From: Escherichia coli
Lineage (GTDB): Bacteria > Pseudomonadota > Gammaproteobacteria > Enterobacterales > Enterobacteriaceae
Reading direction: 5' to 3' (one strand)
NCBI RefSeq assembly: GCF_003334405.1
Contig: NZ_QOWM01000011.1
DNA length: 64,000 bases
Shown here: positions 7,743 through 55,855 of the stretch, in pieces
How the letters are laid out: every line of letters starts with the position of its first letter
Numbering within the stretch: the stretch's first letter is position 1
Notes under the pieces: generated by a model
Database searches by the model: none
Seen by the model: the letters and a program-made list of their open reading frames with translations, nothing else
Told to the model about the DNA's origin: nothing
Program-made: the position numbers and the translations under genes

Positions 7743-10325
7743 TTAGCCAACGACCAGATTGAGGAGTTTACCTGGTACGTAAATCACTTTACGTACAGTA
7801 ACGCCATCAAGATATTTTGCTACCAGATGTTCCTGGCCAGCACGTTCGCGAACCTGTTCTTCCGTTGCGTCCACCGGAACGGTGATTTTGGCACGGACTT
7901 TACCGTTAACCTGCACCACGACCAGCGTGGAGTCTTCCACCATCGCTTTTTCGTCAGCAACCGGCCACGGCGCGTTGTCGATATCGCCTTCGCCTTTCAG
8001 TTCCTGCCACAGCGTGAAGCAGATGTGCGGGGTGAACGGGTTAAGCATACGGACAACGGCCAGCAGTGCTTCCTGCATCAGAGCGCGATCCTGCTCGCCA
8101 TCGGTTGGTGCTTTCGCCAGTTTGTTCATCAGCTCCATAATCGCCGCAATTGCGGTGTTGAAGGTCTGACGACGGCCGATATCATCGGTCACTTTAGCGA
8201 TCGTTTTATGCACATCGCGACGCAGCGCTTTCTGATTTTCAGTCAGCGCATCAACGTTCAGTGCCGCAACATCACCTTTTGCTGTGTGCTCGTAAACCAG
8301 TTTCCAGACACGTTTCAGGAAGCGGTTAGCCCCTTCCACACCGGATTCCTGCCATTCGAGAGTCATATCAGCCGGAGAAGCAAACATCATAAACAGACGA
8401 ACGGTGTCCGCGCCGTAACGTTCAACCATCACCTGCGGGTCGATACCGTTGTTCTTCGACTTGGACATTTTGCTCATGCCGGTATAAACCAGTTCATGGC
8501 CTGCCGCATCTTTCGCTTTCACGATACGGCCTTTCTCGTCACGTTCAACGATAGCATCAACCGGGGAAACCCAGTTACGTTCGCCGTTTTCGCCAACATA
8601 GTAGAAGGCATCTGCCAGCACCATACCCTGACACAGCAACTGTTTCGCTGGTTCGTCAGAGTTCACCATGCCTGCATCACGCATCAGTTTGTGGAAGAAG
8701 CGGAAGTAGAGCAGGTGCATAATGGCGTGTTCAATACCACCAATGTAGATATCCACCGGCAGCCAGTAGTTAGCCGCTTCGGAATCCAGCATACCTTCTT
8801 TGTACTGCGGGCAAGTGTAGCGCGCATAGTACCAGGAGGACTCCATAAAGGTGTCGAAAGTGTCGGTTTCACGCAGTGCTGGCATACCGTTAACGGTAGT
8901 TTTCGCCCACTCCGGATCTGCTTTAATCGGGCTGGTAATGCCGTCCATTACCACATCTTCCGGCAGGATCACCGGCAGCTGGTCGTCCGGGGTCGGCATT
9001 ACGGTACCGTCTTCCAGCGTCACCATCGGAATCGGCGCGCCCCAGTAACGCTGACGGGAAACACCCCAGTCGCGCAGGCGGTAGTTCACTTTACGCTCGC
9101 CAACGCCCATCGCAGTCAGTTTATCGGCGATGGCGTTGAAGGCCGCTTCATGGTCAAGACCGTTGAACTCGCCAGAGTTGAACAGCACGCCTTTTTCAGT
9201 CAGGGCTTGCTGAGAAAGATCTGGCTCAGAGCCGTCAGCTGCCAGGATAACCGGTTTGATGTTCAGGCCGTATTTAGAGGCAAACTCGTAGTCGCGCTGG
9301 TCGTGCCCCGGTACCGCCATAACTGCGCCCGTGCCGTACTCCATCAATACGAAGTTTGCTGCCCAAACGGGAATTTCTTCGCCCGTTAATGGGTGAACCG
9401 CTTTAAAGCCAGTATCGACGCCTTTTTTCTCCATCGTCGCCATTTCAGCTTCGGCAACTTTGGTGTTACGGCATTCGTCAATAAAGGCCGCCAGTTCAGG
9501 ATTATTTTCCGCCGCTTTCTGCGCCAGCGGATGACCCGCAGCTACCGCCAGGTAGGTACAACCCATAAAGGTGTCCGGGCGGGTAGTGTAAACGGTCAGC
9601 GTGTTGTCATAGTCGTTAACGTTGAAGGTGATCTCCACGCCTTCGGAACGACCGATCCAGTTACGCTGCATGGTTTTAACGGTGTCTGGCCAGTGATCCA
9701 GTTTATCCAGATCGTTGAGCAGCTCGTCAGCGTAAGCAGTGATTTTGATAAACCACTGCGGGATCTCTTTACGTTCAACTTTAGTATCGCAGCGCCAGCA
9801 GCAGCCGTCGATAACTTGTTCGTTCGCCAGTACGGTCTGGTCGTTCGGGCACCAGTTGACCGCAGAAGTCTTCTTATATACCAGGCCTTTTTTATACAGC
9901 TCGGTGAAGAATTTCTGTTCCCAACGGTAGTATTCCGGCGTACAGGTTGCCAGCTCGCGGCTCCAGTCATAACCAAAGCCCAGCATTTTGAGCTGGTTTT
10001 TCATATACGCGATGTTGTCGTACGTCCACGGTGCCGGAGCGGTGTTGTTTTTCACCGCCGCGCCTTCCGCAGGCAGACCAAACGCGTCCCAGCCGATCGG
10101 CTGCAGGACGTTTTTGCCCAGCATACGCTGGTAGCGGGCGATCACGTCACCGATGGTGTAGTTACGTACGTGGCCCATGTGTAGTCGACCAGAAGGATAG
10201 GGAAGCATAGACAGGCAGTAATACTTCTCTTTGCTCTCGTCTTCGGTTACTTCAAATGTGCGCTTCTCATCCCAATGAAGCTGTACTTTGGATTCTATCT
10301 CTTCCGGGCGGTATTGCTCTTGCAT
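7743..10325 (-). CDS. leuS: Leucyl-tRNA synthetase
   Basis: ORF track 7743..10466 (907 aa); HMGH and KMSKS class I motifs; start placed at internal Met ([15 protein letters not shown]) giving 860 aa, matching recalled LeuS length. Confidence 0.93.
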
Positions 10326-46159: not shown

Positions 46160-46924
46160 TTAATCATTGAGATAGCGACGGATAGCGCGTAATACCGCAT
46201 CCGGTTTTTCAGCATGGACCCAGTGACCCGCGCCTGCAATCACATGCGCCCGTGCCTGTGGAAATTGAGCCAGTAAATCATCACGGTACTGCTCGCTAAC
46301 ATACGGAGAATTGCCGCCAGGGATAAACAGGGCAGGGTGATCCCATGCCGGGATTTTCTCCCAACCTACAATATGCGGATACTGATCCCACAATACCGGC
46401 ACGTTAAAGCGCCACTCCCCGTCAACAAAAGATTTCAGCAGAAACTGAATCACCCCTTCTTCATTAAGATGCTGGCGCATTATTGCTGCTGCTTGCTGGC
46501 GAGTTTGTGCGTCCGATTCACTGACCGCGTTGATAGCCGCAAAAATCTCATCATGACGGCGTACGTGATAGTCGACCGGCGCGATATCGATCGCCACCAG
46601 TTTATCGATGCGATCGGAGGCTAGTGCAGTAAGTGCCATTACCGCTTTACCGCCCATGGAGTGACCGATAAATGTTGCTTTGTCGATCTGCTGTGCATCC
46701 AGAGTATCAACAAGATCCTGCGCCATCGCCGGGTAATTCATTACCGGATCTCTCGGTGAAAGACCGTGGTTACGCATATCAACCTGGATGATATTGTGAT
46801 CGTTTACCAGATCGCGAGCCAGTACGCCAAGGTTGTCGAGGCTGCCAAACAGACCGTGGACAAGAACGATGGGAGAATTATTGTGCTGGTTTTGTGCAGT
46901 TTGCGCGCGGATATTCAATTTCAT
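46160..46924 (-). CDS. ybfF: Alpha/beta-hydrolase esterase YbfF
   Basis: ORF track 254 aa; GHSMGG nucleophile elbow. Confidence 0.92.
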   Translation of the reverse strand: MKLNIRAQTAQNQHNNSPIVLVHGLFGSLDNLGVLARDLVNDHNIIQVDMRNHGLSPRDPVMNYPAMAQDLVDTLDAQQIDKATFIGHSMGGKAVMALTALASDRIDKLVAIDIAPVDYHVRRHDEIFAAINAVSESDAQTRQQAAAIMRQHLNEEGVIQFLLKSFVDGEWRFNVPVLWDQYPHIVGWEKIPAWDHPALFIPGGNSPYVSEQYRDDLLAQFPQARAHVIAGAGHWVHAEKPDAVLRAIRRYLND

Positions 46925-49332: not shown

Positions 49333-49366
49333 AAAAAAGGGCGGTCGCAAGATCGCCCTTTTTTAC
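49333..49366 (+). terminator. Intrinsic terminator of pgm
   Basis: Hairpin gggcggtc-gcaa-gatcgccc followed by a T6 run. Confidence 0.65.
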
Positions 49367-49385
49367 GTATGACAAACACAGAATT

Positions 49386-49484
49386 GCCTGATGCGCTACG
49401 CTTATCAGGCCTACGAGGATGGTGCAATATATTGAATTTAAGCGATTTTGTAGGCCGGATAAGGCGTTCACGCCGCATCCGGCA
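49386..49484. repeat. Composite REP-spacer-REP element (BIME/RIP-like), copy 3
   Basis: gcctgatgcgctacgcttatcaggcctac ... gcaatatattga ... gtaggccggataaggcgttcacgccgcatccggca; near-identical to 41958-42057. Confidence 0.7.
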
Positions 49485-49533
49485 AAAACAACGAACACTT
49501 TGTCAACAAACTGAGTAGCTCAAGGAAATCCCA

Positions 49534-50028
49534 ATGAAGACCAACAGGAGTCTGGTCGTCATAGTGTCACTAATTACCGCCACATTACTGCTGACTGCAT
49601 GCGCCCAACCTGAACAATCATCATTAGCTGGCGACTGGTTACTGACCCCTAAAGATAAAACCAGAGGATTAACGGGTAGCATTGCGGTAAATATTGCACC
49701 TTTCCGGTGTAAGACAAATTGCCGTGGTGATAACTTACCTGATAATACCCGCCGCTGGCAGTTGTCAGGCGGGAACGAAAAAGAACTTACTTATCTTCAT
49801 AATATGTCAGCACAAGAAAAGGTCGGTTTAAATCCCGGTTGGCAATGCTACACCTCATTTTTTATGCGGGTTTGCCAGGGCAAGCCCGGCACTCGACCGA
49901 TAGTCAATGAGGATTATGTCAGCGAAAGCGGATTTTTTGGCTCGATGATGCATGTCGGGATTATTGAGTTACGACGCTGCCAGTCAGAAAATTGCCAGCA
50001 AGAATTGAAAGCGATAAATACACATTAA
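49534..50028 (+). CDS. ybfP: Lipoprotein YbfP
   Basis: ORF track 164 aa; lipobox LLLTAC. Confidence 0.88.
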   Translation: MKTNRSLVVIVSLITATLLLTACAQPEQSSLAGDWLLTPKDKTRGLTGSIAVNIAPFRCKTNCRGDNLPDNTRRWQLSGGNEKELTYLHNMSAQEKVGLNPGWQCYTSFFMRVCQGKPGTRPIVNEDYVSESGFFGSMMHVGIIELRRCQSENCQQELKAINTH

Positions 50029-50068: not shown

Positions 50069-50827
50069 TTATTGCGTGAATGTTTCTTTCATTTGATACT
50101 GCATTTCCCAGAGTTCAGTAAGCGAAATAACTTTTCTTGTTCTTGCTTCTTCACTTTGTACCCATAAGAAAGGGTAGAACGTGAAGGCTTCCGTTGCCGA
50201 TAATTTTATTACGTCTTCTCGCCATTGCTGCCATCGTACATTTTCATAGAAGGTATCTAAATCACCGGATAATGCCCACTGAAGAAACTCAGAATATCCA
50301 ACTTCCAGACTTTCCCAATTCAGCGTATCTGGCGCAAAATAATAAACGCAGCCAGTATCTTCCCCAAGATCGCCACCATTAAGAGCAAAAATTCCCCCTG
50401 CGACATCGTCAGCGATGGGTAAAGCCCGCACGCCTGCGAATTCAGGGCGTTGTGTCCAACTTACTGGATCTCGTGGCAACCGGGGGTGACCAGATCCTGC
50501 TATGCGTAACCAACCATTATCAATCAGCAGACCTCCGGAGCCATAGACAAGCGCACCCATCGGTGATTTTGTTGTCACCTGTAATTGATAAAGTGCGGTT
50601 TCGGCTAAATCTTTATTAACCGGTAAGAGTTCGGTATGGTTTGTGGCGTCTTTTAACCAGTTCTGGATTATTGGCCAGGCTGAATCTTCAGTATTTACTA
50701 ACTGATTCATTTCACGCATCGCTACTTGCTCCTTGTGTGCTACGGTGTCATTTATGATGAGGAATTGTATGGAACATTTTTTAAATATTAAGTTCCTTAT
50801 ATTTGAATAAAAAATGACTTTATCCAT
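50069..50827 (-). CDS. ybfG: YbfG-like DUF2625-family protein, reading frame intact over 252 codons
   Basis: ORF track 252 aa; family assignment from memory. I recall this locus as a pseudogene in K-12, so intactness here should be checked. Confidence 0.65.
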   Translation of the reverse strand: MDKVIFYSNIRNLIFKKCSIQFLIINDTVAHKEQVAMREMNQLVNTEDSAWPIIQNWLKDATNHTELLPVNKDLAETALYQLQVTTKSPMGALVYGSGGLLIDNGWLRIAGSGHPRLPRDPVSWTQRPEFAGVRALPIADDVAGGIFALNGGDLGEDTGCVYYFAPDTLNWESLEVGYSEFLQWALSGDLDTFYENVRWQQWREDVIKLSATEAFTFYPFLWVQSEEARTRKVISLTELWEMQYQMKETFTQ

Positions 50828-50842
50828 ACATTGCCACTTTTT

Positions 50843-50986
50843 TCAAAGCATAAACCGATACCCAATACCGGTTTCAGTAATAAAATGGCGAGGCCGGGCC
50901 GGATCCTGTTCCAGTTTTTGTCGCAGATGCCCCATATAATTACGCAAATAGTTGCTGTGTTCGATCGCGTTTAGACCCTACATCTG
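50843..50986 (-). pseudogene. ybfI: Fragment homologous to the 3' end of kdpE (ybfI-like gene remnant)
   Basis: About 90% nucleotide identity to 55178-55320 (the last ~48 codons of kdpE), e.g. tcaaagcataaaccgata[c/g]ccaataccggtttcagtaat[a/g]aaatggcg; no intact ORF. Confidence 0.65.
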
Positions 50987-51024
50987 CCGGATGCGGCATA
51001 AATAACGAACTATTTGCCAACAAA

Positions 51025-51058
51025 CAGAAAGGGCGATCATTCAATCGCCCTTTTTTAC
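51025..51058. terminator. Terminator hairpin downstream of potE
   Basis: Stem gggcga(51031-36)/tcgccc(51045-50) with flanking A run and T6 run; adjacent REP-like gccggatgcggcat at 50986-51000. Confidence 0.5.
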
Positions 51059-51067
51059 TTTGTTTTA

Positions 51068-52387
51068 TTAACCGTGTTTATTTTTCAGTTCAAAGCGTGG
51101 TGATACCAGACCATACAGTGTCCAACCAAGGAAGGTCACGATGGAACCGTACAGCATGGCTTCTTCCCCGGATGAGTACAGCGCATAAAAGCTATACATC
51201 GCGCCAACAAAAGCAACAAAGTTTGCAACTTTCGCTTTTGAGGGGGGCACATTAGCGACCTTCTGAATAATGACTAATGCCGCCATTGACAGAATATACG
51301 GAATGATATTGGTCACCACGGCCAGGTTAACCAGCACGTTGAACTGACTGTTTAGCGACGGGCTAATGGTCATCAGTGCCAATCCACTCTGAATAATCAC
51401 AATGGTCAACATTCCCTGCACCGGTGCATCCACTTTGGTTACACGGGAGAAAATTTTAGGGAAGTAGCCTTCATCAGATGAAGATTTAAACACCTGGGCA
51501 ATGGTGAACTGCCAGCCAAGTAGCGAACCGCAGCAGGACATCACCATCAGCGCCATAATGACTTTACCCACTTCCGGCGTGAACATCTGCGCGAAGGCCA
51601 GACCAAATGGTGCCGTTGAATTTGCCAGCTCCATATTTGGCACAATCCCGGCAATCACGTTGGTGGAGACGATATAAATCACCGCCGCACCTAACGTACC
51701 GCCGAGTACCGCGATTGGCACATTACGTTCCGGGTTTTCCACTACATCAGTATTCGCACACGCAGACTCCAGACCAAGAAAAGCCCACAGCGTCATAGCG
51801 ATGGAAGAACCTACCGCACTGAAGAACGGTGCATGATGCGGATTCCAGGAATCAACGTACAGCGTCGGGCTAAACCAGAACCAGCCAATAATGCACAGAC
51901 CGACGACCGGAATAATGACCCCCCACACGGTAATGCTACTGATTTGCCCGGTAATGCGCGCACCACCAAAGTTAGCCACGGTACAAATCCACAGCACCCC
52001 GATGGTCGCAAGACCAATCTGCACTGGCGACAAACTCGCGCCGAGCAGTTCGGTGCCGTAACCAACCGCCGAAATAGCAATCGCGACGTTAGCAATCAGC
52101 AGTGAGACGCCGTAGGTATAGTTCGCCATAAAGTTACCGGATTTACCGAAAGCATACTCGGCATAACCGCCCATACCGCCTGATTTACGGCTGAACATAC
52201 CGCATTTTGCGAATGCCCATGCCAGTGCCATTGAGCCTACGGCTGTCACCAGCCAGGAGATAATTGAGATTGTCCCGACTTCGGCAAGCTTTGTCGGCAG
52301 CATGATGATACCGGAGCCCATCATGTTGACCATCGTCAGTATGGTTAACTGAACGACGCCCATTTTGTTCGATTTAGCCTGACTCAT
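51068..52387 (-). CDS. potE: Putrescine:ornithine antiporter
   Basis: ORF track 439 aa, APC-family transporter; 4-nt overlap with speF. Confidence 0.94.
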   Translation of the reverse strand: MSQAKSNKMGVVQLTILTMVNMMGSGIIMLPTKLAEVGTISIISWLVTAVGSMALAWAFAKCGMFSRKSGGMGGYAEYAFGKSGNFMANYTYGVSLLIANVAIAISAVGYGTELLGASLSPVQIGLATIGVLWICTVANFGGARITGQISSITVWGVIIPVVGLCIIGWFWFSPTLYVDSWNPHHAPFFSAVGSSIAMTLWAFLGLESACANTDVVENPERNVPIAVLGGTLGAAVIYIVSTNVIAGIVPNMELANSTAPFGLAFAQMFTPEVGKVIMALMVMSCCGSLLGWQFTIAQVFKSSSDEGYFPKIFSRVTKVDAPVQGMLTIVIIQSGLALMTISPSLNSQFNVLVNLAVVTNIIPYILSMAALVIIQKVANVPPSKAKVANFVAFVGAMYSFYALYSSGEEAMLYGSIVTFLGWTLYGLVSPRFELKNKHG

Positions 52388-54582
52388 AATTTTTCCCCTT
52401 TCAACAGGGTGCTTTGCGCATCACGAGGCTTGATGACATAGCACCAAACTTGCTTACGACCATCATGTTCTTCGATATAGACACCCTGCAGCTCCGGTGC
52501 AAAACCTGGCAGCAGGTTGATCCCTTCTTCCAGAGCGCTGAAGTAACGCAGAACAGCACCACCCCAGATTTCACCCGGAACAACACACAGCACACCCGGA
52601 GGATAAGGAAGCGCACCTTCGGCAGCGATACGGCCTTCTGCATCCGGCAGACGAACCAGTTCCACTTCACCGCGTAAATAGGCGTAGTTGGCTTCTTGCG
52701 GATTCATGCTGACGCGTGGGAAGTGCTCCTTACGGAACATCTCTTTTTGCAGTTGTTTCACGTTGTGGCGGGCATACAAATCATGCATTTCCTGACACAA
52801 CTGACGCAGGGTATAACCGGCGTAGCGCTCTTCATGCTGTTTGTAGATGGAAGGTAGCACTTCTGCTAATGGCGCGTCGGACTCAAGCAGTTTTTCGAAG
52901 CGTACCAGCAGGGCAACAAGTTGCTGAAGTTTGGCCATATCTTCTGCCGGAGTCAGCAGGAAGAGGATGGAGTTAAGATCGCATTTTTCCGGCACTACGC
53001 CATTTTCGCGCAGGAAGTTAGCAAGAATCGTCGCGGGTACACCGAACGCTTCATATTCGCCGTTACGTGCATCAATACCTGGGGTTGTCAGCAACAGTTT
53101 GCATGGATCGACAAAGTATTGATTCTCTGCATAGCCTTCAAAAGAATGCCAGTGTTCCCCTGGTACAAACTGGAAGAAGCGCAGATCAACCGCAATTTGC
53201 GCTGTTTCATACGACTGCCAGGGTTTACCATCCACCAGTTCAGGTACGAACGGACGAATATGCTGACAGTTATCGAGGATCAGTTTGCGGGCATTAATGC
53301 CATTTACCACACAATCCATCCACATATTACGACCGCTGACACCTTCATGCATTTTGGCGTTGATATCCAGTGCGGCAAACAGCGGATAGAACGGGCTGGT
53401 GGAGGCGTGCATCATAAAGGCGTTGTTCATGCGTTTGTGCGGTACATAACGCTGTTGCCCTTTGATGTGGCTGTCTTTTTTATGAATTTGTGAAGTCTGA
53501 GAAAAACCAGCCTGTTGTTTATGCACAGATTGCGTAACCAGAATACCCGGATCGTTCTCATTAAGATCCAGCAACAGCGGCGAACAGTCCGCCATCATCG
53601 GAATAAACTGTTCATAGCCGACCCATGCTGAGTCAAACAGGATGTAGTCACACAGATGACCAATTTTATCCACCACTTGGCGGGCGTTATAAATCGTACC
53701 GTCGTAGGTGCCTAACTGAATCACAGCGAGGCGGAAAGGACGAGCCTCTTTTGCCCGCTGCGGTGCGACTTCCGCGATCAGCTCACGCAGGTAACTTTCT
53801 TCAAAACAGTGCGCATCAATGCCACCGATAAAGCCATACGGGTTACGTGCCGTTTCCAGATAAACCGGTGTTGCACCAGCCTGTAGCAACGCTCCGTGGT
53901 GGTTAGATTTGTGGTTATTGCGATCAAACAGCACCAGATCACCCGGTGTTAGCAGGGCGTTTAAAACCACTTTGTTAGAAGATGAAGTGCCATTTAAAAC
54001 GAAGTAGGTTTTATCGGCATTAAACACTTTTGCCGCATGTTGCTGTGCAATGCATGGCGCGCCTTCGTGAATCAGCAGATCGCCCATCGCTACGTCGGCG
54101 TTGCACAAGTCGGCACGGAACAGCGCCTCACCAAAGTATTCCACAAACTGATTCCCCGCCGGATGGCGACGGAAAAATTCGCCGCCCTGATGACCAGGGC
54201 AATCAAACGCGCTGTTACCTTGATTGACATAATCGACCAGTGCGCGGAAGAAAGGTGGGCGCAGTTGAGTTTCATAATGGCTGGCAGCGGTTTCTAACTG
54301 GCGACCATAAAATTCTCGTCGCGATTCGCAATTCTCAAAGACACCCGAAATACGGGGCAAATACTCTGCGGGTACACGTTCTTGATTTTCAGTAGCAATA
54401 AATACCGGGATGCCATAACCCGTGGCATCGATTTCATCGAGTTTTCCGCATGTAACATCGTTGAGCGATAAAACTATTGCCGCCACATCGATATTACGAC
54501 TTTCATTAATGTAGATACATTCTCGCTGCGTGGTAAAACAGTCCGGGCAAGAATCACTAACCGCAATTTTTAATTTTGACAT
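52384..54582 (-). CDS. speF: Inducible ornithine decarboxylase
   Basis: ORF track 732 aa, recognised fold-I PLP decarboxylase sequence and length. Confidence 0.94.
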   Translation of the reverse strand: MSKLKIAVSDSCPDCFTTQRECIYINESRNIDVAAIVLSLNDVTCGKLDEIDATGYGIPVFIATENQERVPAEYLPRISGVFENCESRREFYGRQLETAASHYETQLRPPFFRALVDYVNQGNSAFDCPGHQGGEFFRRHPAGNQFVEYFGEALFRADLCNADVAMGDLLIHEGAPCIAQQHAAKVFNADKTYFVLNGTSSSNKVVLNALLTPGDLVLFDRNNHKSNHHGALLQAGATPVYLETARNPYGFIGGIDAHCFEESYLRELIAEVAPQRAKEARPFRLAVIQLGTYDGTIYNARQVVDKIGHLCDYILFDSAWVGYEQFIPMMADCSPLLLDLNENDPGILVTQSVHKQQAGFSQTSQIHKKDSHIKGQQRYVPHKRMNNAFMMHASTSPFYPLFAALDINAKMHEGVSGRNMWMDCVVNGINARKLILDNCQHIRPFVPELVDGKPWQSYETAQIAVDLRFFQFVPGEHWHSFEGYAENQYFVDPCKLLLTTPGIDARNGEYEAFGVPATILANFLRENGVVPEKCDLNSILFLLTPAEDMAKLQQLVALLVRFEKLLESDAPLAEVLPSIYKQHEERYAGYTLRQLCQEMHDLYARHNVKQLQKEMFRKEHFPRVSMNPQEANYAYLRGEVELVRLPDAEGRIAAEGALPYPPGVLCVVPGEIWGGAVLRYFSALEEGINLLPGFAPELQGVYIEEHDGRKQVWCYVIKPRDAQSTLLKGEKL

Positions 54583-54839
54583 TTTTCATCTCTTTATTTT
54601 AGGTAATAGCAGGTCCTCAATTTCTCGAATGAGAAATCGATCGTGCCGGAAAAAAGCAAAGTTACCCCGCTGATAAATAAATCAGGTAGATTGCTTTTTT
54701 CAGAATGCAGAAACCCTTACCAGTCAGGTGGCTGATAATACAAGGGTTAACAGAGAATGAGCACTGCGGAATACAGGCATATGCCTGTAATACAGAGAGT
54801 CAGGAAGACCTGTACGCTGAAGTGCCCTTAGTCGGTAGA

Positions 54840-54944
54840 CTAACGGGCATTGAAGAAGTGAAAGTCGAAGCTATTGCGATGAGCAAACTTCATAATATGA
54901 GTTGTCCGCCTTATATGGGGCATAGTGCGGCTGTTATTTTCCAT
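54840..54944 (-). CDS. speFL: speF leader peptide SpeFL (34 aa, ornithine-sensing arrest peptide)
   Basis: Revcomp of 54840-54944 reads ATG GAA AAT AAC AGC CGC ACT ATG CCC CAT ATA AGG CGG ACA ACT CAT ATT ATG AAG TTT GCT CAT CGC AAT AGC TTC GAC TTT CAC TTC TTC AAT GCC CGT TAG = MENNSRTMPHIRRTTHIMKFAHRNSFDFHFFNAR; not in ORF track (too short). Confidence 0.75.
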   Translation of the reverse strand: MENNSRTMPHIRRTTHIMKFAHRNSFDFHFFNAR

Positions 54945-55115
54945 TTAATTTACCTTTCCTGATGTGAATGAAGGTGAAGATATTCTATCCAGGAAATACG
55001 GTTGAACTGTGAAGGTGATCAATAAAAAATGATCAATCTTAATTTATTTAATGATGAGCTTTTTACTCAGTAATATAAAATATTGAATTGTTATTTTTGT
55101 GTGTTGTTTAAGATA

Positions 55116-55143
55116 AAAAGCCGTATTTATTATTACGGCTTTA
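55116..55143. terminator. Terminator hairpin downstream of kdpE (end of kdp operon)
   Basis: aaagccgta-tttatta-tacggcttt with flanking A and T runs, 35 bp past the kdpE stop. Confidence 0.6.
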
Positions 55144-55177
55144 ATTAATAAAAGGCAGGCTGTATTAAAATTAATAT

Positions 55178-55855
55178 TCAAAGCATAAACCGATAGCCAA
55201 TACCGGTTTCAGTAATGAAATGGCGTGGGCGGGCGGGATCCTGTTCCAGTTTTTGTCGCAGATGTCCCATATAAATACGCAAATAGTGACTGTGTTCGAC
55301 CGCGTTTGGCCCCCACACCTGGTTAAGGAGCTGGCGCTGGGTGAGTACTTTTCCGGCATTGTTGAGCAGCACCGCCAGCAGGCGGAACTCAATTGGTGTG
55401 AGATGCACCTCTTCCTCACCCCGGTGAATCACGCGGGCGGCTAAATCGACGGTAACATCGGAAAATTTTACCAGCGGATCGGGCGCGGTGGTGGCAGAGT
55501 GGCGGCGTAATGCGACGCGCAGACGGGCCTGCAATTCGCCAATGCCAAACGGCTTACTCAGATAATCATCCGCTCCGGCATCCAGCGCGGCGATTTTGTC
55601 GCTCTCTTCGCTGCGTGCGGAAAGCACAATCACCGGCACCGCGCTCCACTGGCGCAGGTCGCGGATAAACTCAATCCCATCACCATCGGGCAGGCCGAGA
55701 TCGAGAATAATCAAATCTGGCTTACGGGTTGCCGCTTCCAGCAAGCCGCGTTGCAGCGTTTCGGCCTCAAAGACGCGCATCCCGTCGCCCTCCAGCGCCG
55801 TGCGCAGAAAGCGACGAATAGCCTGTTCATCTTCAACAATCAGAACGTTTGTCAC
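55178..55855 (-). CDS. kdpE: Response regulator KdpE (OmpR family)
   Basis: ORF track 225 aa; receiver domain ([17 protein letters not shown]) plus winged-helix domain. Confidence 0.95.
   Translation of the reverse strand: MTNVLIVEDEQAIRRFLRTALEGDGMRVFEAETLQRGLLEAATRKPDLIILDLGLPDGDGIEFIRDLRQWSAVPVIVLSARSEESDKIAALDAGADDYLSKPFGIGELQARLRVALRRHSATTAPDPLVKFSDVTVDLAARVIHRGEEEVHLTPIEFRLLAVLLNNAGKVLTQRQLLNQVWGPNAVEHSHYLRIYMGHLRQKLEQDPARPRHFITETGIGYRFML

What the first reader, a model, noticed from the sequence alone, without database searches (positions are those of the whole stretch)
50843..50986. A ~145-bp copy of the kdpE 3' end lies 4.3 kb from kdpE, next to the YbfG-like ORF
Positions 50843-50986 match the last ~48 codons of kdpE (55178-55320) at roughly 90% identity in the same orientation, with no intact reading frame. 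This looks like the remnant of an ancient duplication or rearrangement that placed a second kdpE-like gene beside potE/speF. The region between them (potE-speF-speFL) could therefore have been inserted into, or duplicated with, the kdp locus.
Basis: seen in the sequence. Interest (0 to 1): 0.4.

Follow-up and report, generated by a model that had tools for sequence, protein, structure and literature searches.

The report
Dead kdpE tail fragment (pseudogene ybfI)
This is the already-annotated E. coli K-12 pseudogene ybfI, a decaying 144-base copy of the end of the kdpE regulator gene, most likely left as a scar when two alternative gene arrangements beside kdpE were joined, so it is ordinary rather than a new element.

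Summary
Window 50843-50986 matches the last 47 codons plus stop of kdpE (55178-55321): 130/144 identical, ungapped, same orientation, E = 6e-51. It is not new. The window is essentially E. coli K-12, where this stretch is pseudogene ybfI (b4636).

The fragment covers only half of the winged-helix domain and has an in-frame TAG. Ten of the 14 differences lie on the ybfI branch, spread 3:3:4 over codon positions, which is neutral decay.

E. coli genomes carry several arrangements between pgm and kdpE:
- pgm-potE-speF-speFL-kdpE (about two thirds of genomes);
- the K-12 form with ybfP-ybfG-ybfI added (about one third);
- rare forms lacking speF-potE;
- a rare form, pgm-T1-BIME-X-T2-potE, which equals K-12 minus the block.

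The K-12 form is thus a composite, joined illegitimately between kdpE (145 nt before its stop) and a REP element. No genome holds a second full kdpE. The repeat appears to have mediated natural loss of speF-potE at least twice.

One side observation is more interesting than the finding: two speFL/speF-5' haplotypes in E. coli are diverged at genus level.

The parts
50843..50986 (-). ybfI: 3' fragment of kdpE (last 47 codons plus TGA stop), with an in-frame TAG at 50978-50980. Pseudogene b4636 in K-12.
   Evidence: 130/144 identical to 55178-55321, E = 6e-51. Annotated as pseudogene ybfI in NC_000913 and as 'winged helix-turn-helix, incomplete, missing N-terminus' by PGAP. The peptide matches Pfam Trans_reg_C positions 42-77 of 77 only.
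55178..55855 (-). Intact kdpE (response regulator, 225 aa). Its last 144 nt (55178-55321) are the other copy of the repeat.
   Evidence: ORF list, annotation, orthologue alignment.
50986..51028 (+). D1b: a 12-nt REP half-site plus box X'. It abuts the truncated end of ybfI and marks the illegitimate junction.
   Evidence: 43-nt direct repeat, 81% identical to D1a. In the A' allele a single REP+X copy is followed directly by T2.
51028..51058 (.). T2: hairpin terminator downstream of potE, a paralogue of T1.
   Evidence: Direct and inverted repeat with 49336-49366. Terminator-like on both strands.
49336..49366 (.). T1: hairpin terminator downstream of pgm.
   Evidence: Genomes without the block have a single hairpin between pgm and potE.
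49385..49514 (+). BIME (two inverted REPs) followed by box X. D1a is 49472-49514, just upstream of ybfP.
   Evidence: I9, I10, D1. Sub-threshold Rfam naRNA4 (REP-derived) hit at 49453-49517.
49534..50028 (+). ybfP, a lipoprotein gene in the variable block.
   Evidence: Annotation. Absent from form A genomes. No NCBIfam or PHROG match.
50069..50719 (-). ybfG (DUF2625, 216 aa), in the variable block, directly downstream of ybfI on the minus strand.
   Evidence: Full-length match to NCBIfam NF008494.
51068..54944 (-). potE-speF-speFL cassette lying between the two kdpE ends (potE 51068-52387, speF 52384-54582, speFL 54840-54944).
   Evidence: Annotation. Variably present between kdpE and pgm across Enterobacteriaceae. 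Lost in CUWW10 and GF4-3, which have a ybfI-type flank joined to intact kdpE.
53700..55177 (-). 'Type B' haplotype of the speF 5' end, speFL and the intergenic region. It is 71-88% identical to the allele in genomes without ybfI and ends at the kdpE stop codon.
   Evidence: Sliding-window identity, alignment with outgroups, present in 1,713 of 5,426 genomes.

Best explanation
The element is ybfI, a non-functional 3' fragment of kdpE with no role of its own.

Shown: it lacks the receiver domain, half of the winged-helix domain and a start codon. It carries a stop codon (K-12) or a frameshift (another lineage). It has accumulated changes evenly over codon positions at residues that are invariant in every working KdpE.

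Inferred origin: E. coli populations held two alternative arrangements downstream of kdpE. One had ybfG-ybfP-X-BIME-T1-pgm, and the other had speFL-speF-potE-T2-X-BIME-T1-pgm (the A' allele, which still exists). A recombination event, homologous on one side and illegitimate on the other, joined kdpE at 145 nt before its stop to a REP half-site. This stacked both arrangements in tandem, trapping the 145-nt kdpE tail together with a second copy of REP+X between them. This resembles homology-facilitated illegitimate recombination, or a REP-associated duplication join-point. Which allele was resident and which was incoming is not resolved.

The event happened once, before the split of two lineages that are now about 4% diverged. 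The fragment has drifted since then.

Present-day consequence: the fragment forms a 145-nt direct repeat with kdpE. This appears to have mediated deletion of the speFL-speF-potE cassette at least twice in nature while leaving kdpE intact.
For: Identity with the annotated pseudogene: (the window is 99.97% identical to MG1655 over 9 kb).

Half-domain only.

Decay: of the 14 differences, 10 are on the ybfI branch, at codon positions 1:2:3 = 3:3:4. Six are nonsynonymous, at residues invariant from Escherichia to Yokenella. The other 4 are polymorphisms among working E. coli kdpE alleles.

Single old origin: the junction is the same, and 4 derived changes including the TAG are shared between the K-12 and L008/L009 lineages. 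Each lineage also has 6 private changes, including a 1-nt deletion in L008.

Structural alleles:
- Form A, pgm-T-potE.
- Form B, the K-12 form, in about 1,760-1,845 of 5,426 genomes.
- Form C, pgm-ybfP-REP-kdpE without speF-potE.
- A', predicted from the repeats and then found with a chimeric query in R32_14_1F and N96.

Junction anatomy: homology ends 2 nt after the stop on one side and at CAG next to a truncated REP on the other. REP+X is duplicated.

Cassette mobility.

Cassette loss through the repeat: CUWW10 and GF4-3 have the ybfI-type flank fused to an intact, kdpE-type 3' end, and their flanking genes are 99.4-100% identical to K-12.
Against: The parent with ybfG directly next to an intact kdpE is seen only in two genomes, and these look like recent derivatives of form B rather than ancient parents. 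That parent is therefore inferred, not observed. A' could itself be a secondary deletion of form B, by recombination between D1a and D1b. Distant ybfG homologues in other genera are not next to kdpE, so there is no independent support for an old kdpE-ybfG synteny. D1a/D1b and T1/T2 are only 81% identical over 31-43 nt, which is more diverged than ybfI/kdpE. The microhomology at the join is just 3 nt (CAG), which is weak evidence for any specific mechanism. The very divergent type B speFL/speF-5' haplotype linked to form B shows the history involved at least one more exchange that this model does not explain. Both cassette-loss genomes resolved in the last 20-40 nt of the repeat, which is somewhat unexpected for simple homologous recombination.
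Confidence: 0.7

Rival explanations
1. In-situ duplication. A segment containing kdpE, or kdpDE, was duplicated in tandem within one genome. The second copy then lost all but its last 145 nt through deletions, and the contents of the two duplicated units diverged by later gene gain and loss.
For: The geometry resembles a tandem-duplication join-point. REP+X (D1a/D1b) and the kdpE tail are both duplicated in direct orientation. REP elements are known join-points of tandem duplications in enterobacteria (background knowledge, not tested here).
Against: The two 'units' hold entirely different genes (ybfP-ybfG versus potE-speF-speFL), so extra replacement steps are needed. No genome keeps more than the 145-nt tail: the truncation point is the same in all lineages and the kdpE 5' 533 nt is single-copy in 5,416 genomes. 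Alleles carrying each unit alone exist in the population, which makes a cross between alleles simpler.
Confidence: 0.17
2. Hitch-hiking end of a foreign, functional kdpE. The ybfP-ybfG block was imported from another species in which ybfG lay downstream of kdpE, bringing the donor's kdpE tail with it. On this view the roughly 10% divergence is divergence between orthologues.
For: Homology ends exactly at the stop codon, as expected when two orthologues have different downstream neighbours. All six differences in the last 31 codons are synonymous. The closest YbfG relatives outside Escherichia are only 50-57% identical, so ybfG looks horizontally acquired.
Against: After polarisation, the fragment reconstructs to an ordinary E. 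coli-type kdpE tail. Its unique changes are spread evenly over codon positions, and six of them hit residues invariant in all KdpE orthologues examined. Three of the six synonymous differences are polymorphisms of E. coli kdpE itself. No kdpE allele in E. coli or the outgroups is closer to ybfI than 91%. ybfG homologues in Citrobacter sp. and Kosakonia are not near kdpE.
Confidence: 0.08
3. Attachment-site duplication left by site-specific integration of a mobile island, either speF-potE or ybfP-ybfG, into the 3' end of kdpE, in the way islands integrate into tRNA genes.
For: A direct repeat of a gene's 3' end brackets a variably present gene cassette.
Against: There is no integrase, transposase or phage-like gene in either segment. 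YbfP and YbfG have no PHROG hits and no mobile-element family, and the cassette genes are metabolic. The repeat is 145 nt at 90% identity, with one end at a REP element and with REP+X also duplicated, which does not look like att sites.
Confidence: 0.02
4. The fragment is functional. It might encode a small winged-helix-derived peptide (a 65-aa ORF is open in many strains), an RNA, or promoter or insulator sequence for ybfG.
For: In many E. coli strains the TAG is CAG, giving a 65-aa ORF (P0121, seen on 452 contigs). A weak sigma-70-like match overlaps the ybfI stop and points toward ybfG.
Against: Different lineages carry a stop (K-12), a frameshift (L007-L011, L028) or IS-associated truncation or deletion. 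Changes are neutral in pattern. Only half a domain is present. Two thirds of E. coli genomes lack the fragment altogether. No Rfam family reaches its threshold. Promoter-like matches are no more frequent than in shuffled sequence.
Confidence: 0.03

Closest known systems
ybfI (b4636), annotated pseudogene of E. coli K-12 MG1655
   Same: Same locus and sequence. The K-12 annotation at 716721-716870 maps to window 50843-50992. PGAP annotates the same stretch in other strains as a partial winged-helix protein lacking its N-terminus.
   Different: Nothing differs in the object itself. The annotation gives no origin. No paper on E. coli ybfI was found in the searchable library; all six hits for 'ybfI' concern the unrelated B. 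subtilis gene.
KdpE, OmpR/PhoB-family response regulator of the kdpFABC operon
   Same: The fragment is homologous to the C-terminal 47 residues of KdpE (part of the recognition helix and the wing), and the last 31 residues are identical.
   Different: It has no receiver domain, lacks the first 41 positions of the Trans_reg_C domain, has no start codon and has a premature stop. It is therefore not a member as a gene or protein.
Homology-facilitated illegitimate recombination and REP-associated duplication join-points (mechanisms known from transformation studies in Acinetobacter and from Salmonella tandem duplications; recalled from background knowledge, not read here)
   Same: One boundary lies in conserved homologous sequence and the other is a join without homology (3-nt CAG) falling inside a REP element. 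The outcome is a short duplication of resident sequence next to the new DNA.
   Different: This is a natural, ancient event inferred from surviving alleles. The direction, the donor and the number of steps are unknown, and nothing was demonstrated experimentally.
Gene-tail remnants at boundaries of replaced or inserted segments in enterobacterial genomes (generic class of junction pseudogenes)
   Same: A short, truncated, drifting copy of the neighbouring gene's end at the edge of a variable segment.
   Different: Here the putative parental alleles, or close proxies for them, and secondary deletion products are all still present in the species. That makes the case unusually well documented, but not different in kind.

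Membership tests
E. coli K-12 pseudogene ybfI (b4636) | Same genomic position (between ybfG and potE) and same sequence as the annotated feature | tested here: met
   NC_000913 716721-716870 corresponds to window 50843-50992. The window is 99.97% identical to MG1655 over 9,001 nt.
Functional KdpE / OmpR-PhoB response regulator | N-terminal receiver domain (Response_reg, PF00072) | tested here: not met
   Homology covers only the last 144 nt of kdpE. The sequence upstream is REP plus box X plus terminator.
Functional KdpE / OmpR-PhoB response regulator | Complete winged-helix DNA-binding domain (Trans_reg_C, PF00486) | tested here: not met
   Only model positions 42-77 of 77 are matched, E = 6.9e-8.
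Functional KdpE / OmpR-PhoB response regulator | Open reading frame with a start codon, under purifying selection | tested here: not met
   In-frame TAG in K-12 and a 1-nt deletion in another lineage. Six replacements fall at residues invariant in all orthologues. Branch changes are 3:3:4 over codon positions.
   The 144-nt match is kdpE coding sequence. A 12-nt REP half-site lies next to it at 50986-50997, outside the kdpE-homologous part.
Integrative island with att duplication | Integrase or recombinase gene within the bracketed segment | tested here: not met
   Genes between and beside the repeats are potE, speF, speFL, ybfG and ybfP. None is a recombinase, and there are no PHROG hits.
Scar of illegitimate recombination between structural alleles | Alleles corresponding to each parent exist independently | tested here: inconclusive
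   A' (pgm-T1-BIME-X-T2-potE) was found as predicted. Form C (ybfP next to kdpE, no cassette) was also found. The exact ybfG-next-to-kdpE parent is seen only as probable secondary derivatives.
Scar of illegitimate recombination between structural alleles | A junction without extended homology, shared by all carriers (single event) | tested here: met
   The same CAG/REP junction occurs in K-12, L007, L012 and L013 (L014's contig begins inside the fragment, so its junction is not visible). Four derived substitutions are shared across lineages.
Scar of illegitimate recombination between structural alleles | Direction of transfer and identity of the donor | not testable with these tools
   This needs a per-genome cross-tabulation on a species tree and searches of all Escherichia species.

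The most novel reading that the evidence does not exclude
The pgm-kdpE boundary may be a hotspot for cassette exchange in Escherichia. On this reading, ybfI records an event that also brought in a xenologous regulatory end of the speF operon: the type B speFL leader, intergenic region and speF 5' end, 74-80% identical to the other E. coli allele. About a third of E. coli, including K-12, would then sense ornithine through a foreign leader and promoter. The ybfI/kdpE repeat would keep the whole speF-potE cassette excisable.
Probability: 0.25. Interest if true: 0.35.

Novelty: already known. Interest (0 to 1): 0.15.

Why it matters
It matters little on its own. The fragment is a catalogued pseudogene with no sign of function. 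The useful outcome is negative and clarifying: it is not evidence for a second kdpDE system. The locus is a neat, well-documented natural example of how short gene-tail pseudogenes arise at the edges of swapped gene cassettes, and of how such a relic can later promote loss of the neighbouring genes (here the inducible ornithine decarboxylase/antiporter pair). The linked, deeply diverged speFL/speF-5' haplotype may interest people who study SpeFL-mediated ornithine sensing, because the K-12 model allele is not the allele carried by most E. coli.

Tried and rejected
1. Foreign functional donor allele. I first read the six synonymous differences in the last 31 codons as a sign of an orthologue from another species. 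Polarising with 11 working kdpE alleles showed that three are E. coli kdpE polymorphisms and that the ybfI-branch changes are neutral.
2. Form C kdpE as the source allele. Rejected: it is 126/144 identical to ybfI against 135/144 to K-12 kdpE.
3. CUWW10 and GF4-3 as the ancient 'ybfG next to kdpE' parent. Rejected as primary forms because their flanks are 99.4-100% identical to K-12. KL53 is an IS1-associated deletion.
4. Gene conversion from kdpE to ybfI. It is suggested by a draft assembly (L012, 145/145 kdpE-type) and a mosaic metagenome scaffold (L013). None of 1,832 complete genomes carrying the fragment has a converted allele, so it is rare or an assembly artefact.
5. The species-representative genome scan with YbfG returned only three loci: an E. 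coli-like contig in a Collinsella MAG and two Paenibacillus genomes.
6. Searching with the 47-aa peptide returned short ORFs only, which was useful for finding variants but not donors.
7. The literature search for E. coli ybfI found only B. subtilis ybfI papers.
8. Rfam: only sub-threshold hits, on the REP/BIME and the terminator.
9. Promoter scan: no more matches than in shuffled sequence.
10. Conserved kdpE-ybfG synteny in other genera: not found.

Full report
**Observation.** Window 50843-50986 aligns without gaps to 55178-55321, at an offset of 4335 and in the same orientation. Identity is 130/144 (90.3%). A blastn of the region against the rest of the window gives 145 nt at 90.3% with E = 6e-51, and nothing else scores better than E = 0.004. 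kdpE lies on the minus strand at 55178-55855, and the copy corresponds to its last 47 codons plus the TGA stop. On the minus strand the copy reads QM*GLNAIEHSNYLRNYMGHLRQKLEQDPARPRHFITETGIGYRFML*, against QVWGPNAVEHSHYLRIYMGHLRQKLEQDPARPRHFITETGIGYRFML* in KdpE. Homology stops 2 nt after the stop codon on one side and at a shared CAG codon on the other.

**Identity.** The window is essentially E. coli K-12, with 3 mismatches in 9,001 nt against MG1655. In NC_000913 this stretch is annotated as pseudogene ybfI (b4636, 716721-716870), between ybfG and potE. In other strains PGAP labels it 'winged helix-turn-helix domain-containing protein, incomplete, missing N-terminus'. The gene order on the + strand is:
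- pgm(+)
- ybfP(+)
- ybfG(-)
- ybfI(-)
- potE(-)
- speF(-)
- speFL(-)
- kdpE(-)
- kdpD(-)

The object is therefore already catalogued. I found no paper on E. coli ybfI in the searchable library; all hits are the unrelated B. subtilis gene.

**It is dead.** The peptide matches Pfam Trans_reg_C only at positions 42-77 of 77. There is no receiver domain and no start codon. All working KdpE orthologues examined, from Escherichia, Salmonella, Citrobacter, Pseudocitrobacter, Phytobacter and Yokenella, keep VWGPNAVEHSHYLRIYMGH unchanged. ybfI carries V>M, W>stop, P>L, V>I, H>N and I>N within that stretch.

I polarised the 14 differences against 11 working kdpE alleles. Ten changes fall on the ybfI branch, spread 3:3:4 over codon positions, which is the pattern of neutral drift. 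The other four are ordinary polymorphisms among E. coli kdpE alleles. This removed my first impression of a functional foreign donor, which had rested on six of six synonymous differences in the last 31 codons.

A second lineage, about 4% diverged overall (L007-L011, L028), has the same fragment at the same junction. It shares 4 derived changes with K-12, including the TAG, and each lineage has 6 private ones, among them a 1-nt deletion in the diverged lineage. The fragment therefore arose once, already truncated, before these lineages split. No Rfam family reaches its threshold, and promoter-like matches are no more frequent than in shuffled sequence.

**Population structure of the locus.** Complete E. 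coli genomes show several arrangements between pgm and kdpE:

| Form | Arrangement | Where seen |
|---|---|---|
| A | pgm - single hairpin - potE-speF-speFL-kdpE | about two thirds of genomes |
| B | pgm-T1-BIME-X-ybfP-ybfG-ybfI-REP½-X'-T2-potE-speF-speFL-kdpE | K-12 and the window; 1,764-1,845 of 5,426 genomes, depending on the query |
| C | pgm-T1-BIME-X-ybfP-REP-kdpE, with no speF-potE and no ybfG | B1.H1.18, JNE25-003 |
| A' | pgm-T1-BIME-(REP+X)-T2-potE-... | R32_14_1F, N96 |

I predicted A' from the repeat anatomy and then found it with a chimeric query. Form B equals A' plus the insert [ybfP-ybfG-'kdpE145-REP½-X].

In other genera, speFL-speF-potE is variably present between kdpE and pgm. 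It is present in Salmonella and C. koseri and absent in C. freundii and Yokenella. Distant ybfG homologues in Citrobacter sp. and Kosakonia lie at unrelated loci.

**Mechanism (inferred).** Form B stacks two alternative neighbours of kdpE in tandem. The join falls between kdpE, 145 nt before its stop, and a truncated REP, and the REP+X sequence is duplicated as D1a and D1b. The simplest account is a single recombination between two structural alleles, homologous on one side and illegitimate on the other, with 3 nt of CAG microhomology at the join. The direction is unresolved: either the cassette entered a ybfG-kdpE chromosome, or the ybfP-ybfG block entered an A' chromosome. A whole-gene duplication of kdpE or kdpDE is not supported. 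The truncation point is the same everywhere, and the remaining 533 nt of kdpE are single-copy, with 5,418 places in 5,416 genomes. An att-like integration is unlikely because there is no recombinase and no phage-like protein.

**Consequences.** A chimeric query joining the ybfG side to upstream kdpE found three genomes with ybfG next to an intact kdpE.
- CUWW10 and GF4-3 have the ybfI-type downstream flank fused to a fully kdpE-type 3' end. Their flanking genes are 99.4-100% identical to K-12. They are therefore recent losses of speFL-speF-potE, apparently by recombination across the 145-nt repeat, resolved so that kdpE stays intact.
- KL53 lost the same genes through an IS1-associated deletion.

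Apparent gene conversion of ybfI by kdpE appears in a draft assembly (L012) and a metagenome scaffold (L013). It appears in none of the 1,832 complete genomes that carry the fragment, so it is rare or an artefact.

**Unexpected side observation.** Window 53700-55177 covers the first ~900 nt of speF, speFL and the intergenic region up to the kdpE stop. This segment is only 71-88% identical between form B genomes and form A or A' genomes, while the flanks are 95-99% identical. The two haplotypes are 74% identical in the intergenic region plus speFL and 80% identical in speF codons 1-100. That is as far apart as E. coli is from C. koseri or Salmonella. Type A is the closer of the two to those outgroups in speF. 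Type B occurs in 1,713 genomes, close to the number carrying ybfI, though I could not cross-tabulate them per genome. The SpeFL peptide differs at two residues (NNSRT versus NNNRL). The locus history therefore includes at least one exchange with a distant donor. That exchange ends at the kdpE stop codon, the same boundary as the ybfI homology.

**Verdict.** The element is the known pseudogene ybfI, a junction scar with no function of its own. Novelty: already known. Interest: low.

Noticed in passing
window 53700-55177 (speF 5' end, speFL, speFL-kdpE intergenic region): E. coli has two deeply diverged haplotypes here. The K-12 type and the type in genomes lacking ybfI are 74% identical in the intergenic region plus speFL, 80% in speF nt 1-300 and 88% in nt 301-600, with flanks at 95-99%. 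This is genus-level divergence. The K-12 type is present in 1,713 of 5,426 complete genomes. SpeFL differs at two residues.
   Followed up: partly
L015 (NZ_CP146564.1, strain B1.H1.18) and L016 (NZ_AP045053.1, strain JNE25-003), locus positions 9171-9982: These rare E. coli genomes lack speFL-speF-potE entirely. They have pgm-ybfP-REP-kdpE, and kdpE ends in TAG instead of TGA.
   Followed up: partly
window 49336-49366 and 51028-51058: The pgm and potE terminators are paralogous hairpins (31 nt, 81% identical). Genomes without the block have one hybrid-looking hairpin, which is consistent with deletion between the two copies or with insertion into a single bidirectional terminator.
   Followed up: partly
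window 50069-50719 (ybfG): ybfG is marked as a pseudogene in the K-12 record. Yet it is an uninterrupted 216-aa DUF2625 ORF with an end-to-end match to NCBIfam NF008494, and PGAP annotates it as intact in other strains. In the diverged lineage (L007-L011) it is truncated to 132 aa. The closest relatives outside Escherichia are only 50-57% identical.
   Followed up: partly
L001 (NZ_CP116159.1, strain DETEC-P351), corresponding to window 53877-54096: speF is a pseudogene in this strain (frameshift and internal stop), with about 220 nt missing relative to the window.
   Followed up: no
H1 (PK8277), H16 (EC11), H29 (APEC17), L023 (KL53), H133 (ET82): IS elements (IS1, ISVsa5, IS200C) are inserted in or beside the ybfP-ybfG-ybfI block or speFL in several strains, so the interval is a frequent target for insertions.
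   Followed up: no
L004 (JAIJJM010000630.1, 'MAG: Collinsella sp.'): A 1.9-kb contig 100% identical to the E. coli K-12 ybfP-ybfG-ybfI region is binned into a Collinsella metagenome-assembled genome. This is probably binning contamination.
   Followed up: no
P0121 (65-aa ORF, seen on 452 contigs): In many E. coli strains the TAG of ybfI is CAG. This gives an open 65-aa frame that starts inside the potE terminator and box X region and ends at the old kdpE stop. No evidence of expression was examined.
   Followed up: no
window 49453-49517: A sub-threshold Rfam hit to naRNA4 (a REP-derived nucleoid-associated RNA; 41.5 bits against a gathering score of 59.5) falls on the BIME downstream of pgm.
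   Followed up: no
window 46200-46800: There is a local dip in identity (93.7-97.7%, against about 99% on either side) between K-12 and several other E. coli lineages upstream of pgm, which suggests another recombination patch.
   Followed up: no
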